Part shown: piece after piece, positions 22,959 through 54,652 of the stretch
How the letters are laid out: each line of letters starts with the position of its first letter
Numbering within the stretch: the stretch's first letter is position 1
Virus record (IMG/VR): IMGVR_UViG_3300049846_001678
Coordinates: 1 to 55,628 of that record
DNA from: a virus
Lineage: Duplodnaviria; Caudoviricetes
Length of the DNA: 55,628 nucleotides
Direction: 5' to 3' (one strand)
Made by a program: the position numbers and the translations under genes
The notes under the pieces: model-generated
Seen by the model: only the letters and a program-made list of their open reading frames with translations
What the model was told of the DNA's origin: nothing
The model's database searches: none

Positions 22959-23295
22959 CCTGACAGACAGACAAAAATTAAATATGATCAAGAGTATACT
23001 GCAACCGTCTCTGCTTGAAATGATCAAGCAGTTTGGTCCGCTGCCGGTGTTCTTTGGGTTGTTAGAGTGTGTTTCGGAATTGGCTGTTGCAGGCGGGATG
23101 AAAAAGTCATATTTGACGCGGCAGGTGGGCAAGGTTTATGTGGCCATGCGCGCACACGCGTCGCAAGTACCAATAAGGAAGGACGAGGAAGTATGCCAAA
23201 CAAACGAAGTATCGTCGGAGCCCTCTGCGCAATTACATTTGCCCTCGGAGGGTGCGCCCATCAACCCAAGTACGACGGAGACACCGGATTCATAA
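22948..23295 (+). CDS. Hypothetical protein
   Basis: GGGAGG RBS, TTG start. Confidence 0.55.
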   Translation: MINNLTDRQKLNMIKSILQPSLLEMIKQFGPLPVFFGLLECVSELAVAGGMKKSYLTRQVGKVYVAMRAHASQVPIRKDEEVCQTNEVSSEPSAQLHLPSEGAPINPSTTETPDS

Positions 23296-23792
23296 TTAAG
23301 AAAGAAAAGGAACTGACGTTCGATCTGCGCCTTCTACCGATCGTCGTTTATATCGATCCGGAGTTGCCGGTCGATTGTTATGCGGCGTTAGTAGAGGCGA
23401 TTACCGAGATGAACATAATCGTCGGGCGAACCGTGTTTCTTATGCCCAGGGTTCCGGAATCTCCGGATACCTTCGATGGGTTTAACGGAGCTGGTGCAGT
23501 GTTTGTAACACAGACCCGAGGCGACCAGTCTCGTGGCCTGACGCGGCATTTTATTGATGCCACAGCGATGACAATTGTTAATGCAATTGTTTGGCTACCG
23601 GCGACCGGCGTATATCGTGCAGATCTCCAGTTTGCGCTGCACGAGCTGGGGCATGTCCTTGGGTTAGAGCATGATGAAATTCGAGAGAGCCTGATGTATA
23701 AGGAATTGTTGGGACCGGGAAAAACAGCGGTTCCACAAGACCTGACGGTAAAGGACCGTGCCCTGTTGCGTGATACATACGGTCGTAAGTAG
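23193..23792 (+). CDS. Lipoprotein matrixin (M10-like metzincin) protease
   Basis: Lipobox ALGGC; HELGHVLGLEH zinc motif; Met-turn SLMY; GAGG RBS. Confidence 0.85.
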   Translation: MPNKRSIVGALCAITFALGGCAHQPKYDGDTGFIIKKEKELTFDLRLLPIVVYIDPELPVDCYAALVEAITEMNIIVGRTVFLMPRVPESPDTFDGFNGAGAVFVTQTRGDQSRGLTRHFIDATAMTIVNAIVWLPATGVYRADLQFALHELGHVLGLEHDEIRESLMYKELLGPGKTAVPQDLTVKDRALLRDTYGRK

Positions 23793-49785: not shown

Positions 49786-49983
49786 ATGAACTGGCAACTT
49801 TTTTCTGTAATATTCATGATCGTGTCTTTCGTTGTAATCGTGGGCGTTGATGTTTTCCTTCTTACTCGGAAACAGCAGGCAACGTTCAGCGAGATACTAC
49901 GAAACACAGCGCGGAAGTGGCAACCAATAATCATGATAATATGCTTTGGTTTCGGCATGTTAGCCGGCCATTGGTGGTGGTAA
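49786..49983 (+). CDS. Small two-TM membrane protein
   Basis: GAGGA RBS; ends GMLAGHWWW. Confidence 0.7.
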   Translation: MNWQLFSVIFMIVSFVVIVGVDVFLLTRKQQATFSEILRNTARKWQPIIMIICFGFGMLAGHWWW

Positions 49984-50207
49984 TGTTTATGTCGCCGAGA
50001 TTGGAAATTCCAAGCGGGGCGATTGACGGCTCGAATCGGGTATTTACAACTACCTTTGACTACGTTCCGGGTAGTGTTGTCGCCCATCTGAACGGGCAGG
50101 CGGCACACATCAACGCTGTGGAGCTTGGCAATAAACAATTCGAATTCGCCGTTGACTCCACCCCCAAATCAGGCGACGTAGTCACGGTCTACTATAGGTC
50201 TCTGTAA
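49983..50207 (+). CDS. Small beta-module structural protein
   Basis: SGAIDGSNRVFTT...HLNGQ...GDVV..YY. Confidence 0.65.
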   Translation: MFMSPRLEIPSGAIDGSNRVFTTTFDYVPGSVVAHLNGQAAHINAVELGNKQFEFAVDSTPKSGDVVTVYYRSL

Positions 50208-50650
50208 TGGGAATTCCGCATTTTGAAGTTCTATCGGGGGCAGTAAACGGTGTAAACCTGGTGTTTACCACGTCTGTTCCATATACAGCCGGAACTTTAG
50301 CTGTCTACCTGAACGGACAGTTGCTCTTAAATCCTGGCGGAAACCCGTGGACCGAAACCAATCCCGCCACCGGCGCAGTAACCATTCACAGCGAGGAGCT
50401 GCCGGAAACTGGAGACGTCGTTGCTGCGTTCTATCTCGACACAACAAACGCCTATACCGGCGAAGAGGTCGAGCAGATCTACGGAAGTATTAACGAAATA
50501 GATGACCTGGCGGGCATTCTCGTAACCGCTCAAAACTTATCGGCAAATGTATACGAACCTGATACACTTAGTGGTATACTAACTGACCAAGAAATAGAGG
50601 CAGGTCTATATCCTATATCGGATCTGACCGGCGTAGTAACGGAGTGCTAA
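50207..50650 (+). CDS. Beta-module structural protein, paralogue of upstream ORF
   Basis: SGAVNGVNLVFTT...VYLNGQ...GDVV..FY. Confidence 0.7.
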   Translation: MGIPHFEVLSGAVNGVNLVFTTSVPYTAGTLAVYLNGQLLLNPGGNPWTETNPATGAVTIHSEELPETGDVVAAFYLDTTNAYTGEEVEQIYGSINEIDDLAGILVTAQNLSANVYEPDTLSGILTDQEIEAGLYPISDLTGVVTEC

Positions 50651-51028
50651 ATGTCTTTAGAGAACAAACTTGACCTGTACTTTAAAAAGGGCCAATCGAA
50701 GACATACCTGGTTACCGTTACCGACGAACTGGGTGCCCGCGTCGACCTTACGGGCGGCGTGGCTAAGATGACGATAAAGGATAACCTTACGTCGCCAACT
50801 GTAACCATCGCCAAGTCGTCGACCGTTGTTACTGAGATTGTCATACTAAGTCAAGTTGTGGAAACAACTAAGGGGCAGTTTGAGGTGTATTTTGTGCCCA
50901 GCGACACCACTTCGGTGGCTCCGGGAGAATATAAGTACGATGTTTGGGTACAGCTGGCCAGCGGCAAGCGGTATCCTGTTATTCACCCGTCCTCTTTCTT
51001 GTTAGAGGCGTCAGTCACAGTTTTCTAA
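50651..51028 (+). CDS. BppU N-terminal-like Ig-fold structural protein
   Basis: G.S....VTVTD..G..VDLTG, P.DT....PGEYKYDV. Confidence 0.7.
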   Translation: MSLENKLDLYFKKGQSKTYLVTVTDELGARVDLTGGVAKMTIKDNLTSPTVTIAKSSTVVTEIVILSQVVETTKGQFEVYFVPSDTTSVAPGEYKYDVWVQLASGKRYPVIHPSSFLLEASVTVF

Positions 51029-51039
51029 AGGAGATAGTT

Positions 51040-51438
51040 ATGGATTGGAATACTATTTTAGTTGATATCGGCGGACAACTTATTCCCTGGGCAGTAACCG
51101 GTTTGATTGCCCTTCTTGGTAAGTTTGTCTACAGCAAAATGAAAAACGATTATTGGAAGGGTGTTGCAGAGCGAGCAACATCTGAAGTTCTTCATGCAGC
51201 GGTCGAGGTTCACCAAACGTATGTAACGGCCATCAAAAAGGGCCGCGAAGATGGTAAACTCACTGCTGAAGAGCAGGCCGAGGCTAAGAAACGCGCCATA
51301 GAAACCGCTAAGGCTAACCTGGGCGTCAAGGGCTTCTCTAGCCTGGCGAAGGTTGTCGGCGGCGCAGAGGCGGCGGATAAGTGGCTTGGAACGCGAGTCG
51401 AGTCCACGGTTAGTGCGCTCAAGTCAAACCCTCAGTAA
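51040..51438 (+). CDS. LL-H-family-like holin
   Basis: AAGGAG RBS; N-terminal TM; V.QTYV..IKK...DGKLT.EE..EAK; next to endolysin. Confidence 0.7.
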   Translation: MDWNTILVDIGGQLIPWAVTGLIALLGKFVYSKMKNDYWKGVAERATSEVLHAAVEVHQTYVTAIKKGREDGKLTAEEQAEAKKRAIETAKANLGVKGFSSLAKVVGGAEAADKWLGTRVESTVSALKSNPQ

Positions 51439-51719
51439 ACAACCTTCTCGCAATGCGGCCTCTTCAGCGGGCCGAAGATACCCTAAAGAAGGGACTTTCA
51501 GCTGCGGAAGCCTTGAAGGTTGGAGAGACGAAAGTCGATCTCGGTCTGTTGGCGGACTATAAAGCCGGAAAGGCTGTTATAGGGGGCTTCGTTGACGCCG
51601 AAAAGAAGATAACTAAGTCCATTGCCGGTTACGCCCGTGCCGAAGCTGGTAGAATACTTCAAACAGGTAAAGATGAAAACTTTGCCCTAGGTACTGTAGG
51701 TCTGCGATTTCGTTGGTAA
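51432..51719 (+). CDS. Four-beta-strand ORF with C-terminal beta-signal; probable -1 frameshift extension of holin
   Basis: A AAC CCT at 51426-51432; -1 frame open 51414-51719; no SD before ATG 51453; ends GLRFRW. Confidence 0.6.
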   Translation, partial: SVNNLLAMRPLQRAEDTLKKGLSAAEALKVGETKVDLGLLADYKAGKAVIGGFVDAEKKITKSIAGYARAEAGRILQTGKDENFALGTVGLRFRW

Positions 51720-51774
51720 AATATAAAAAATAACGATGCTGAAATGTATCGTTTTTTGTAGAAAAAGGATGCTT

Positions 51775-52389
51775 ATGAGCTACTTTGTGTCGCTAGATTG
51801 GAAGGCAATTAAAGGGATATATGGGCCTACTAAGGATCAATTCGCTAAGCGCCTATCGTATCTGCAACACGAGGCTGCCGAATCCTTTTTAAATGCCCAA
51901 GGAGACACGGAACGGGGCCTGGTGGTGTCGGACATGTTCCGTAGCATGAAAGCCTCCTACGAGCGTAAATACCCGCCAGGAAGGCCCCCACGAAAGGATG
52001 TTCAACCCCCCGGATTTAGTGCCCATAACTTCGGTCTGGCAATCGATTTGGCTGTTGACGAGACAATGAAGGGGTTAGGAATTAAAAAGAAGCCAGAACT
52101 GGATGCCTTTATGGCGGAATATGGGTGGTACTGCCACCGAAAAGATGGACAGCGAGGTAGCGAAGATTGGCATTTCAACTACCTCGGATACCTGATACCA
52201 AAAGATAACGAACGATCGACGGCGGGAGCGATCGAACGAAAGATAAGAGCCCTTTATGAGCCCTTTGCCTGTGAACCGCCCAGTGACGTTCGGGCTTTTC
52301 AAGCGCGCTACGGGCTTACAGCGGATGGGGTTTTTGGTCCAATAACGCGCCGACTATACTGGCTAGAACTGAATCAACCTAGTTCTTAA
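51775..52389 (+). CDS. Endolysin: M15-family zinc peptidase with peptidoglycan-binding repeat
   Basis: SDMFRS, SAHNFGLAID, EDWHF; FQARYGLTADGVFGPIT. Confidence 0.9.
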   Translation: MSYFVSLDWKAIKGIYGPTKDQFAKRLSYLQHEAAESFLNAQGDTERGLVVSDMFRSMKASYERKYPPGRPPRKDVQPPGFSAHNFGLAIDLAVDETMKGLGIKKKPELDAFMAEYGWYCHRKDGQRGSEDWHFNYLGYLIPKDNERSTAGAIERKIRALYEPFACEPPSDVRAFQARYGLTADGVFGPITRRLYWLELNQPSS

Positions 52390-53880: not shown

Positions 53881-53970
53881 CTAGTAAAGGTTCCAATATT
53901 GGTAAATGACCCAACCAGCGGTCAGAAGTCCCGCCACTGCAAGCATCAATTCTGGAATGTTATCAAGCAT
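53881..53970 (-). CDS. 29-aa single-TM microprotein
   Basis: MLDNIPELMLAVAGLLTAGWVIYQYWNLY; GGGGA RBS, TAATG coupling. Confidence 0.55.
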   Translation of the reverse strand: MLDNIPELMLAVAGLLTAGWVIYQYWNLY

Positions 53971-54200
53971 TAGTTCCCCGACTTCTTTACTGGTGCAATC
54001 GTTGTCGACGACAGAATCGTCGGAATAGAAGCCACGCCCATGCGCCCCTGATAATCGTCGATGGACTTCTCCAGCTTCTTATAGGCATCCTCCTTCTGTT
54101 TGTTTGTCACGGTAAATATGTGAAGATACGTACCGCAAACAAAAAGAACGGAAAGGAAGCCAAAAACGCCCAGGATCAGGCATGAAATAACGATGTTCAT
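53970..54200 (-). CDS. Single-TM membrane protein
   Basis: GAGGAGG RBS; N-terminal TM. Confidence 0.65.
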   Translation of the reverse strand: MNIVISCLILGVFGFLSVLFVCGTYLHIFTVTNKQKEDAYKKLEKSIDDYQGRMGVASIPTILSSTTIAPVKKSGN

Positions 54201-54652
54201 TATTCCTCCTCGCAGTAATAGTCACGACACTCGCCAACGCATCGCTTTCCTTTTCCTCGACCATAGTCGGAGTCGTGTACGCAAGAGCTAACACACTGGC
54301 CAATATGTTCCCACTTTACGGGCTCACAATCGTCGTCGGGGTGGGAACCGCTACCAGATCCGGAACCGTTTCCATTACCAGAATCGTCGCCGGAGTCCAC
54401 ACCCGCATCTTTACAGGGCTTTGGCTCTTTATCGTCGTCAACAGGTACGGGAACAGGTACCGGAACTGGGATCGGCACGAATGTCGATTTCCCGCACTCT
54501 TGTGCCAAATAGACGTCCTCACCACAGGGCTTGTGTGGCCAGCAACAATCGATGTCGTCGCATCCTGTTAAAAGCTCAAGCGCGGCCACAACAGCTACAG
54601 GAACTAGTGCAAACACGAAAACGTTTCTAAAAAACCGCTTAACCTTTGTCAT
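54200..54652 (-). CDS. Cys-rich lipoprotein with (PV)n and G/S linkers
   Basis: Lipobox LLTGC; PIPVPVPVPVP; DAGVDSG; GSGSGS. Confidence 0.75.
   Translation of the reverse strand: MTKVKRFFRNVFVFALVPVAVVAALELLTGCDDIDCCWPHKPCGEDVYLAQECGKSTFVPIPVPVPVPVPVDDDKEPKPCKDAGVDSGDDSGNGNGSGSGSGSHPDDDCEPVKWEHIGQCVSSCVHDSDYGRGKGKRCVGECRDYYCEEE

What the first reader, a model, noticed from the sequence alone, without database searches (positions are those of the whole stretch)
51040..51719. Holin joined by a -1 slippery site to a four-stranded outer-membrane-type beta anchor: candidate new lysis (spanin-substitute) architecture
Seen: the LL-H-like holin ends TCA AAC CCT CAG TAA, giving an in-frame X XXY YYZ heptamer (A AAC CCT, 51426-51432) just before the stop. 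The -1 frame opens only at 51414 and runs through the heptamer to 51719; its ATG at 51453 has no Shine-Dalgarno. The extension is a short helix plus four amphipathic strands (KVDLGLLADY, AVIGGFVDAEK, IAGYARAEAG, FALGTVGLRFRW) ending in a terminal aromatic. It lies between holin and endolysin, and no Rz/Rz1 pair is evident. Known: a terminal aromatic strand is the BamA beta-signal; trimeric autotransporter anchors give four strands per monomer; known spanins attach to the outer membrane by lipidation, not by a barrel. Inference: a roughly 226-aa frameshift product (TM, helical stalk, oligomeric barrel) could bridge both membranes, with frameshifting setting the ratio of short to long forms. Caveat: lysines just after the TM predict a cytoplasmic C-terminus, which conflicts with simple i-spanin topology.
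Basis: partly seen in the sequence, partly recalled or inferred. Interest (0 to 1): 0.8.

Follow-up and report, generated by a model that had tools for sequence, protein, structure and literature searches.

The report
Holin gene with frameshift-linked beta module
Just behind the holin-like lysis gene of this uncultured phage, one base out of frame, lies a conserved small protein that resembles a piece of an outer-membrane barrel; some related prophages can make it only by a ribosomal slip from the holin gene, a lysis design absent from the papers searched, although here the piece also has its own start codon.

Summary
The 132-aa holin-like gene ends with an in-phase A_AAC_CCT. The -1 frame opens at 51414 and runs to 51719. 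The ATG at 51453 has no Shine-Dalgarno. The 88-aa product folds as a helix plus four long strands ending in Trp.

The ORF belongs to a real family. I examined 21 loci, grouped into 13 lineages, mostly Myxococcota prophages.
- The module lies in the -1 frame behind a holin-like gene in 13 of 13 lineages.
- Ten lineages carry an in-phase X_XXY_YYZ heptamer 3-8 codons before the stop.
- All six lineages without a usable start codon have a heptamer. L033 and L034 have the window's own A_AAC_CCT at the same distance from the stop.
- All three lineages without a heptamer have GTG overlapping TGA.

Programmed -1 frameshifting is therefore well supported for the family. In the window it is plausible (about 0.55) but probably minor: the heptamer class is weak, no hairpin exceeds shuffles, and the ATG is conserved.

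The spanin-like bridge reading is not supported, because the predicted topology is N-out/C-in. The module looks outer-membrane-like, and its function is untested. This scan noted the same design before on other DNA. The paper searches I ran found no description of it.

The parts
51040..51438 (+). Holin-like gene (132 aa): N-terminal TM helix plus a helical, K/E/A-rich C-terminal domain, with predicted N-out/C-in topology
   Evidence: AGGAG Shine-Dalgarno and ORF. PHROG holin families phrog_13712 (E 1.6e-7) and phrog_36209 (E 0.015). No Pfam holin model matches. Six homologues of 132-141 aa. AF2 helices at 15-33, 37-68, 76-106 and 109-128, pLDDT 65.
51426..51432 (+). In-phase X_XXY_YYZ heptamer A_AAC_CCT, three codons before the stop; candidate -1 slip site
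   Evidence: The same heptamer lies at the same distance from the stop in the start-less loci L033 and L034. Heptamers with a CCN A-site codon are a weaker class in E. coli (PMC4066793 passages).
51414..51452 (+). Open -1 frame linking the heptamer to the module's ATG; it holds no ATG, GTG or TTG and encodes ...KPSVNNLLA
51453..51719 (+). 88-aa beta module gene (helix plus four long amphipathic strands, ends ...GLRFRW). It has its own ATG and no Shine-Dalgarno, 14 nt after the holin stop, in the -1 frame
   Evidence: The family comprises 10 short proteins plus genomic loci. AF2 pLDDT 85. ESM Atlas look-alikes are outer-membrane barrel families. No Pfam, PHROG or NCBIfam match.
51440..51522 (+). 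Candidate RNA structure only: an 8-bp stem (51440-51447 with 51515-51522) that starts 7 nt after the heptamer and encloses the ATG. It is not better than shuffles
   Evidence: z 0.09; 104 of 200 shuffles fold as well; z -0.8 to -0.9; 16 of 60 shuffles reach the best local hairpin.
51732..51753 (+). Terminator-like hairpin plus T-run between the module and the endolysin gene
   Evidence: 8 pairs; the number of such sites in the region is as expected from shuffles.
51775..52389 (+). Endolysin (VanY-type peptidase plus PG_binding_1). The likely start is ATG 51775, behind AAGGA

Best explanation
ORF 51453-51719 is a genuine gene for a conserved small beta module that belongs to lysis cassettes. 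It is always placed in the -1 frame directly behind a holin-like gene and before the endolysin.

Across the family the module is made in two ways. One is a C-terminal extension of the holin-like protein by programmed -1 ribosomal frameshifting at an in-phase heptamer, often with a hairpin 3-8 nt downstream. The other is a separate protein made from a start codon that overlaps or closely follows the holin stop.

The window carries both signals. Most ribosomes would stop at TAA 51436, and some could reinitiate at ATG 51453 to give the free 88-aa module. A minority probably slip at A_AAC_CCT to give a 226-aa holin-module fusion.

Shown here: the anatomy, family membership, the conserved phase, the heptamer/start-codon complementarity, the fold prediction and the synteny.

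Inferred: that slipping really occurs in this phage (about 0.55) and that the module is outer-membrane-directed (about 0.65). Also inferred is that it stays on the cytoplasmic side, free or tethered to the N-out/C-in holin-like protein, until the holin triggers, and that it then reaches and damages the outer membrane as the last lysis step (about 0.35).
For: Family. A profile search of 1.84 billion proteins gave 13 hits at E<=0.001. Ten of them are 60-92 aa and all ten end in F or W.

Genomic loci. Matches occurred in 6 of 401, 15 of 401 and 16 of 147 Myxococcota-side genomes, plus 2 IMG/VR contigs.

In 21 loci grouped into 13 lineages with a holin-like gene upstream:
- The module is in the -1 frame in 13 of 13 lineages.
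- An in-phase heptamer lies 3-8 codons before the stop in 10 of 13: window A_AAC_CCT, L004-8 C_CCT_TTG, L014/L015 C_CCT_TTC, L016 G_GGC_CCG and C_CCG_GGC, L018 A_AAT_TTT, L019/L024 G_GGC_CCT, L033/L034 A_AAC_CCT, L035 and L036/42/43 C_CCT_TTT.
- All six lineages with no ATG, GTG or TTG before or at the start of the homology have a heptamer.
- All three lineages without a heptamer (L002, L031, L032) have GTG overlapping TGA.

Null expectation. The heptamer frequency is 0.27% per position in these loci. It occurs in the last 9 codons of 15 of 193 long frames, a count that includes the holin-like genes themselves.

Hairpins, as the number of shuffles reaching the observed stability: L009 1/60, L014 3/60, L024 2/60, L019 6/60, L033 1/60, L034 0/60, L043 3/60.

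Variable sites in five close prophages: 3 of 53 from the heptamer to the hairpin, 12 of 42 just upstream, and 46 of 411 in the gene body.

Motif efficiency. C_CCU_UUY and A_AAU_UUU are among the most efficient E. coli motifs, and hairpins usually start 5-8 nt downstream (PMC4066793 passages).

Synteny. An Amidase_2 endolysin follows the module in 3 of 3 loci tested; the window has a VanY endolysin.

Outer-membrane likeness. Atlas hits by features (0.93-0.95) and by structure (TM 0.62-0.70) are Phage_OMP, OMP_b-brl, OmpG, KdgM, YadA_anchor and porin clusters. G-x-R-x-x-F/W is the C-terminus in 13 of 13 aligned members.
Against: For slipping in the window itself:
- The heptamer has a CCN A-site codon, a less shift-prone class, and its sibling A_AAC_CCA was one of only 3 of 64 motifs that failed even with a strong pseudoknot.
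- No downstream structure exceeds shuffles.
- The module has its own ATG, with Met-Arg at the same column in P0004, P0005, P0006 and L016.
- Holin homologues at 70% identity or less have different C-terminal tails, and SNPQ is kept only in the 94%-identical P0018.
- I could not obtain the DNA of these near relatives.

Hairpins are not better than shuffles in L018 (19/60), L035 (26/60), L042 (34/60), L015 (8/60) and L016 (9/60).

No in-frame fused protein was found among longer proteins (weak evidence).

For the outer-membrane role:
- The module has no signal peptide.
- It matches no Pfam, PHROG or NCBIfam model.
- Foldseek found nothing at E<=0.001 in PDB or BFVD.
- One strand face is mostly Ala/Gly, and charged D29, D48, R62, E64 and R85 sit on the other face. 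That fits a narrow barrel lumen but also a soluble sheet.
- Atlas scores of 0.9 or more arise for 4-10 in 100 shuffled proteins.
Confidence: 0.5

Rival explanations
1. These are two ordinary, translationally coupled genes. The 88-aa module is made only from its own ATG, by termination-reinitiation after the holin stop. The heptamer and the -1 phase are then leftovers of a frameshifting ancestor, or chance, and no functional fusion is made in this phage.
For: The ATG is present, and Met-Arg is conserved at the same column in relatives at 48-51% identity. Three lineages clearly use a separate start, GTG overlapping TGA, and have no heptamer. The heptamer class is weak. No stimulatory structure exceeds shuffles. 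Several other window genes that abut or overlap the preceding stop also lack a Shine-Dalgarno.
Against: An in-phase heptamer in the last 9 codons is rare: 4 of 129 frames in the window. The identical heptamer lies at the identical distance from the stop in L033 and L034, which have no start codon and very strong hairpins. The -1 phase is kept despite a 14-nt gap, where one in three would be expected by chance. L016 repeats the same combination of a nearby ATG, a heptamer and the -1 phase.
Confidence: 0.35
2. The module is not outer-membrane-directed. It is a cytoplasmic beta domain, free or fused, that regulates the holin-like protein. The long isoform would act as an antiholin or timer, with frameshifting fixing the ratio of isoforms.
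For: The predicted N-out/C-in topology puts the fusion point in the cytoplasm. The module has no signal peptide. No structure search gives a significant outer-membrane-protein match. Isoform pairs that time lysis are known for holins (lambda S105/S107; recalled).
Against: The very C-terminal residue is an invariant aromatic, inside a G-x-R-x-x-F/W motif, in 13 of 13 members. The strands are 12-14 residues long and rich in Gly and Ala. Atlas look-alikes are outer-membrane barrel families by both features and structure. The same module occurs behind export-type double-glycine-like leaders in 8 chromosomal loci, which points to action outside the cytoplasm.
Confidence: 0.25
3. The 226-aa fusion is a unimolecular spanin substitute, anchored by its TM in the inner membrane and by an oligomeric barrel in the outer membrane, and it bridges the periplasm before lysis.
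For: The architecture is a TM helix, helices and a four-strand module with an OMP-like terminus. No canonical spanin was recognised in the window. u-spanins show that one protein can link both membranes (PMC6139136 passages).
Against: Charge distribution predicts N-out/C-in across the family, and the L019/L024 variant has a signal-peptide-like N-terminus before the TM. The helical domain is modelled as three helices with loops. The module lacks a lipobox or any Cys. The module also works as a separate gene in three lineages. The gene lies between holin and endolysin rather than last in the cassette.
Confidence: 0.07
4. The -1 ORF is a chance open frame and not a gene.
For: It has no Shine-Dalgarno and matches no family model.
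Against: An 82%-identical 88-aa homologue exists, as does a family detectable at E 2.4e-19 to 5.8e-4. Conserved motifs and a confident fold are present. Synteny is conserved in distant genomes.
Confidence: 0.01

Closest known systems
Programmed -1 frameshifts that make a C-terminally extended minor product (lambda G/GT tail chaperone, dnaX, IS911/IS3; PMC4066793 passages read; the G/GT case is recalled)
   Same: An in-phase X_XXY_YYZ heptamer lies near the end of the upstream ORF. The -1 frame is open across it into a conserved coding region. In relatives, hairpins start 3-8 nt downstream. The arrangement would give a fixed ratio of short to long product.
   Different: The gene class is a holin-like lysis gene. 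The added part is an OMP-like beta module. The window's heptamer is a weak class without a clear stimulator, and the downstream frame also has its own ATG.
Spanins: two-component Rz/Rz1 and unimolecular T1 gp11 (Kongari 2018, PMC6139136, passages read)
   Same: It is a lysis-cassette component that combines an inner-membrane anchor with an element suited to the outer membrane. The u-spanin periplasmic domain is also beta-rich. The window has no recognised spanin.
   Different: Spanins need an outer-membrane lipoprotein signal, and this module has no Cys and no signal peptide. The predicted topology is the opposite of an i-spanin. No HMM match was found (Rz-like phrog_1152 at E 0.18 only). The position is between holin and endolysin.
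Trimeric autotransporter membrane anchors (Pfam YadA_anchor PF03895)
   Same: Both have one helix followed by four beta strands and a C-terminal aromatic. The Atlas structure search lists a YadA_anchor cluster at TM 0.65. Weak Foldseek rows point to the YadA anchor 2lme (E 0.12) and to phage YadA-like adhesins (E 0.03-0.1).
   Different: There is no Pfam match at E<=1, no Sec signal and no passenger domain. The structural matches are not significant.
Disruptin gp28 of phage phiKT (bioRxiv 10.1101/515445; only the search listing and the start of the abstract were seen)
   Same: It is a small non-spanin protein, without a lipoprotein signal, that is proposed to disrupt the outer membrane at the last step of lysis in a spanin-less phage.
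   Different: gp28 is described as a cationic antimicrobial-type peptide. The module here is a four-strand beta unit with an OMP-like terminus and is coupled in frame or phase to the holin-like gene.
Holin/antiholin isoform pairs from one gene (lambda S105/S107 dual start; recalled)
   Same: Two products of one lysis gene are made in a set ratio.
   Different: There the difference is two N-terminal residues arising from alternative starts. Here it would be a 95-residue C-terminal domain added by frameshifting.
Pfam Phage_OMP (PF24653, cyanophage outer-membrane-protein-like beta-barrel domain) and OMP_b-brl clusters of viruses
   Same: These are the nearest ESM Atlas clusters by features (0.94) and by structure (TM 0.70), and they are also phage-encoded.
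   Different: No HMM match to any Pfam family at E<=1. No alignment or E-value comes with the Atlas hits.

Membership tests
Programmed -1 ribosomal frameshift site | In-phase X_XXY_YYZ heptamer with the -1 frame open across it | tested here: met
   A_AAC_CCT at 51426-51432. The -1 frame is open from 51414 to 51719.
Programmed -1 ribosomal frameshift site | Slip site conserved in homologues beyond chance | tested here: met
   10 of 13 lineages have an in-phase heptamer 3-8 codons before the stop, and L033/L034 have the same heptamer as the window. The null is 0.27-0.50% per position. The window's nearest relatives could not be checked at the DNA level.
Programmed -1 ribosomal frameshift site | Stimulatory RNA structure 5-8 nt downstream | tested here: inconclusive
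   The window is not better than shuffles. Structures are strong in L009, L014, L024, L033, L034 and L043, and not better than shuffles in L018, L035 and L042.
Programmed -1 ribosomal frameshift site | Downstream frame has no initiation of its own | tested here: not met
   The window has ATG 51453, conserved as Met-Arg in relatives. The feature is met in six other lineages.
Programmed -1 ribosomal frameshift site | Trans-frame protein detected | not testable with these tools
   This needs a Western blot, mass spectrometry or a reporter assay.
Holin (LL-H type, Pfam holin models) | Match to a Pfam holin model | tested here: not met
   0 of 7 family members match at E<=1. For the window protein the only hit is 'Senescence', below its cut-off.
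Holin (PHROG holin families) | Profile match, small size, at least one TM helix, next to the endolysin | tested here: met
   phrog_13712 at E 1.6e-7 (window), 4.2e-6 (L002) and 7.2e-7 (L009); phrog_36209 at E 2.3e-7 (L009). The TM is at about residues 13-32. The endolysin lies 337 nt downstream. Hole formation is untested.
Spanins (i-, o-, u-spanin) | Outer-membrane lipoprotein signal (lipobox Cys) on the outer-membrane partner | tested here: not met
   The 88-aa module has no Cys and no signal peptide. The requirement is stated in PMC6139136.
Spanins (i-, o-, u-spanin) | Type II (N-in/C-out) inner-membrane anchor with a periplasmic domain | tested here: not met
   The N-tail is acidic or neutral, with 3-5 K/R after the TM across 14 members. 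The L019/L024 variant has a signal-peptide-like N-terminus before the TM. This is a prediction from the positive-inside rule, not an experiment.
Trimeric autotransporter anchor (YadA_anchor) | Pfam PF03895 match | tested here: not met
   0 Pfam families at E<=1 for the module, and also none for L033's module.
Trimeric autotransporter anchor (YadA_anchor) | Helix plus four strands ending in an aromatic residue | tested here: met
   AF2 model. The terminal residue is F or W in 13 of 13 members.
Trimeric autotransporter anchor (YadA_anchor) | Sec signal and N-terminal passenger; trimeric 12-strand barrel | tested here: not met
   There is no signal peptide or passenger. The oligomeric state is not established (see Tried and rejected).
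BAM-dependent outer-membrane proteins | C-terminal beta-signal (G-x-x-aromatic/hydrophobic-x-aromatic, last residue F or W; consensus recalled) | tested here: met
   G83-L-R-F-R-W88 in the window. The pattern G-x-R-x-x-F/W holds in 13 of 13 aligned members.
BAM-dependent outer-membrane proteins | Delivery to the periplasm by a Sec signal; membership in a barrel family | tested here: not met
   There is no signal peptide and no HMM match. Only Atlas look-alikes point this way.

The most novel reading that the evidence does not exclude
The module is a new class of phage lysis protein. It would be a BAM-signal-bearing mini beta-barrel subunit made in the cytoplasm, either free or as a frameshift-made tail on the holin. 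It would be released or exposed only when the holin opens the inner membrane. It would then assemble in, or jam the assembly of, the outer membrane and so replace spanins. The same module, behind double-glycine-type export leaders in Myxococcota chromosomes, would be a bacteriocin-like weapon working on the same target.
Probability: 0.3. Interest if true: 0.9.

Novelty: new variant of a known kind. Interest (0 to 1): 0.72.

Why it matters
How phages without spanins breach the outer membrane is an open question. Kongari 2018 (PMC6139136, passages read) could find no spanin in 91 genomes and concluded that some phages must use another route.

A conserved, uncharacterised beta module with an OMP-like terminus sits between holin and endolysin. 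Its phase linkage to the holin-like gene is tight enough that six lineages have lost any start codon for it. It is therefore a concrete, testable candidate for that route, or else for a new way of timing lysis.

It would also add a lysis gene to the short list of phage genes that use programmed -1 frameshifting. In addition, it shows gene callers systematically truncating or missing this module. Family members are called as 52-71-aa fragments, and my own ORF scan did the same.

For this window the practical outcome is an annotation: a holin-like gene, a candidate slip site, a beta-module gene and an endolysin.

Tried and rejected
**Close relatives with DNA.**
- blastn and tblastn against 50,697 phage records found no match.
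- IMG/VR scans with the module, the holin-like protein, the endolysin and alignment A3 found no relative. Only the holin alignment A5 gave two loci.
- Metagenome scans with A4 and with P0014 found none. A genome scan with A4 found none.
- Sequencing runs: of three runs, X1 may be the source sample. X2's contig ends at 51416, and X3 covers only 50906-51056. Nothing was learned about the heptamer.

**Fold and family searches.**
- Foldseek against PDB and BFVD gave 0 matches at E<=0.001.
- A PDB profile search gave a best E of 0.78, to a designed transmembrane barrel, which is not evidence.
- NCBIfam found nothing for the module.
- A search for longer, in-frame fused proteins found none (weak evidence).

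**Oligomer.** Complex prediction on three copies of the module gave no verdict (score 0.03, mark 0.42). That is neither support nor evidence against.

**Double-glycine leader of group B.** The only family hits were weak RiPP and bacteriocin models at E 0.1-0.3. I saw no transporter within 6 kb by eye. The label rests on a recalled consensus.

**Spanin candidates in the window.** The lipobox ORF 54200-54652(-) and the TM ORF 53970-54200(-) have no PHROG spanin hit.

**Papers.** Searches list no paper on a frameshift in a holin gene or on a beta-barrel lysis module. One search found nothing. These are listings only, and subscription journals are not covered. The supplements of PMC4066793 (per-motif efficiencies) are closed and could bear on how shifty A_AAC_CCU is.

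**Rejected readings.** A chance ORF, and transcriptional slippage (there is no long A or T run).
Full report
**What the window is.** The window is a whole IMG/VR virus record of 55,628 bp that CheckV rates complete. It encodes DNA polymerase, large terminase, portal, major head and tail sheath proteins, so it is a myovirus. It has no tRNA genes and 49% G+C. Runs that hold it are labelled freshwater sediment or freshwater metagenomes. No phage record resembles the region.

**The observation.**
- A 132-aa ORF (51040-51438) follows an AGGAG site and ends with an in-phase A_AAC_CCT heptamer three codons before TAA.
- The -1 frame is closed by TAG at 51411-51413 and is open from 51414 to 51719. Its first ATG, GTG or TTG is the ATG at 51453, which has no purine-rich motif upstream.
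- A slip would give 226 aa.
- The next gene is a VanY plus PG_binding_1 endolysin. A terminator-like hairpin lies between the two.
- In-phase heptamers in the last nine codons are rare in this genome: 4 of 129 long frames.

**The two proteins.** The upstream protein matches PHROG holin families (E 1.6e-7) but no Pfam holin model, so 'LL-H-like' is not supported. It has one N-terminal TM helix. Its helical domain is modelled as three helices, at pLDDT 65.

The 88-aa ORF has no family match. With an 11-sequence alignment it folds confidently (pLDDT 85) into a helix plus four strands of 12-14 residues.

**The module is a real family.**
- A word-based search found one 82%-identical 88-aa protein.
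- An exhaustive HMMER search found 13 proteins at E<=0.001. Ten of them are 60-92 aa and share the motifs and a terminal F or W. The three long hits (309, 497 and 3,399 aa) are weak and match repeats.
- No in-frame fused form was found.

**Relatives with DNA.**
- A 44%-identical holin-like protein led to a Kofleriaceae MAG contig, L002.
- From there, profile searches of genomes found the module in 6 of 401 (phylum sample), 15 of 401 (class sample) and 16 of 147 (order) genomes.
- A holin-alignment scan of IMG/VR added two contigs.
- In total I examined 21 loci with a holin-like gene upstream and grouped them by near-identical tails into 13 lineages.

**The comparative pattern.**
- The module is in the -1 frame of the upstream gene in 13 of 13 lineages.
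- Ten lineages have an in-phase X_XXY_YYZ heptamer 3-8 codons before the stop. At least five motif types are represented.
- Six lineages (L004-8, L014, L015, L019/L024, L033/L034, L035) have no ATG, GTG or TTG before or at the start of the homologous region. L014 and L019 have none in the whole open frame. All six have a heptamer.
- Three lineages (L002, L031, L032) have no heptamer near the stop, and all three have GTG overlapping the TGA stop.
- Four lineages have both signals: the window and L016 (ATG 14 and 11 nt after the stop), L036/42/43 (ATG 14 nt after the stop) and L018 (TTG overlapping TGA).
- L033 and L034 carry the window's own heptamer at the same distance from the stop and have no start codon.

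**How unlikely this is by chance.** The background heptamer frequency is 0.27% per position in these loci. With about 5% chance per gene end, five independent motif types among eight classes has a probability of order 1e-5. That figure is my own arithmetic, and the lineages are not fully independent.

**RNA structure.** In the GC-rich relatives, hairpins of 8-14 bp with different sequences begin 3-8 nt after the heptamer.
- Few dinucleotide shuffles reach them in L009 (1/60), L014 (3/60), L024 (2/60), L019 (6/60), L033 (1/60), L034 (0/60) and L043 (3/60).
- They are not better than shuffles in L015 (8/60), L016 (9/60), L018 (19/60), L035 (26/60) and L042 (34/60).
- In five closely related prophages, the heptamer-to-hairpin stretch is the least variable part, at 3 of 53 sites. 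The stretch just upstream varies at 12 of 42 sites.
- In the window no structure exceeds shuffles.

**Motif strength.** Passages of Sharma et al. 2014 (PMC4066793) give the following for E. coli.
- Structures usually start 5-8 nt downstream.
- UUN and AAN A-site codons shift better than CCN and GGN.
- H_HHU_UUY motifs are among the most efficient. This class covers C_CCU_UUC, C_CCU_UUU and A_AAU_UUU.
- With a strong pseudoknot, 61 of 64 heptamers shift. A_AAC_CCA is one of the three that do not.

The window's A_AAC_CCU is therefore a weak class. In L033 and L034 the same motif comes with very strong hairpins, whereas in the window it comes with an ATG instead.

**Reading for the window.**
- The family-level case for programmed -1 frameshifting is strong; I put it near 0.9 for the start-less lineages.
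- For the window, the rarity of the heptamer, its identity with L033 and L034, and the kept phase argue that slipping still happens.
- The weak motif, the lack of a stimulator and the conserved Met-Arg start argue that most of the module is made from its own ATG.
- I put a functional fusion here at about 0.55.

**Topology and the spanin idea.**
- Across 14 aligned holin-like proteins the N-tail is acidic or neutral, and 3-5 K/R follow the TM.
- The L019/L024 variant has a signal-peptide-like N-terminus and a Pro/Ala-rich linker before that TM.
- By the positive-inside rule the helical domain, and any tail fused to it, is cytoplasmic.
- The module has no Cys or signal peptide, whereas spanins need a lipoprotein signal (PMC6139136).
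- A pre-formed bridge across the periplasm is therefore unlikely.

**What the module looks like.**
- Its C-terminus is G-x-R-x-x-F/W in 13 of 13 aligned members. This fits the recalled BAM beta-signal.
- The strands alternate. D29, D48, R62, E64 and R85 lie on one face, and hydrophobic or small residues lie on the other.
- ESM Atlas neighbours, by features (0.93-0.95) and by structure (TM 0.62-0.70), are outer-membrane barrel families. They include viral OMP_b-brl and Phage_OMP clusters and a YadA_anchor cluster. The tool warns that such scores arise for some shuffled proteins.
- Foldseek gives nothing significant.
- The triad of holin-like gene, module and endolysin is kept with different endolysin types: Amidase_2 in 3 of 3 loci tested, and VanY in the window.
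- Eight chromosomal loci carry the same module behind a double-glycine-type leader with its own ATG. This hints at action outside the cytoplasm.

**Earlier notes and papers.** This scan noted the same design before on other DNA. Those notes are unchecked leads. My loci and counts were made independently and agree with them on the slip sites. One of those notes judged the tail to be soluble. My paper searches list no description of this design.

**Verdict.** The finding is a new variant of known kinds: a -1 frameshift extension and a holin-linked lysis factor. The function of the module remains open.

Noticed in passing
L020, L021, L023, L037-L041 (Myxococcota genomes): The same beta module occurs as a stand-alone chromosomal gene with its own ATG. 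In 8 of 8 such loci it sits behind a double-glycine-type leader (L-S/T-x-x-E/D/Q-L-x-x-I/V-x-G-G), like an exported bacteriocin or RiPP precursor. The only family hits were weak (E 0.1-0.3), and I saw no transporter within 6 kb.
   Followed up: partly
window 49786-49983 (+): A 65-aa ORF with two TM helices and a GAGG Shine-Dalgarno lies among tail-fibre-region genes, 1 kb upstream of the lysis genes. It could be a second holin-like protein. It has no PHROG match.
   Followed up: partly
window 54200-54652 (-) and 53970-54200 (-): A 150-aa protein with a signal peptide, an LLTGC lipobox and PV repeats is followed, with overlapping stop and start, by a 76-aa protein with an N-terminal TM helix and a further helix. 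This pairing of a lipoprotein with a TM protein was not recognised as a spanin by PHROGs.
   Followed up: partly
window 23193-23792 (+): A second lipobox-bearing ORF (ALGGC) of 199 aa lies just before the DNA polymerase gene.
   Followed up: no
window 51732-51753: A terminator-like hairpin with a T-run separates the module from the endolysin gene. The endolysin may therefore be on a separate or attenuated transcript.
   Followed up: no
L002 4072-4305 and 4985-5060: In the Kofleriaceae contig, a 77-aa TM plus coiled-coil ORF overlaps the start of the holin-like gene; it has weak Rz-like PHROG hits (E 0.01-0.03). A 25-aa hydrophobic ORF sits between the module and the Amidase_2 gene.
   Followed up: partly
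L019 and L024 (one genome, two copies): The upstream partner here is a different protein: a signal-peptide-like N-terminus, a Pro/Ala-rich linker, a TM helix and a helical domain. It has no PHROG match. It still has an in-phase G_GGC_CCT, an 11-12-bp hairpin and no start codon for the module.
   Followed up: partly
L036, L042, L043 (one genome); L017, L022: One genome holds three copies of the cassette. One copy has an internal TAA in the module, and another has a disrupted upstream gene. L017 and L022 look like decayed copies without a recognisable holin-like gene.
   Followed up: no
window 49917-51028 (+): Three consecutive small ORFs lie before the holin-like gene. The first two (96 and 147 aa) share a similar N-terminal motif (...G-x-x-N-x-x-F-T-T...NGQ). 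The third (125 aa, 50651-51028) matches phrog_1084 of unknown function.
   Followed up: no
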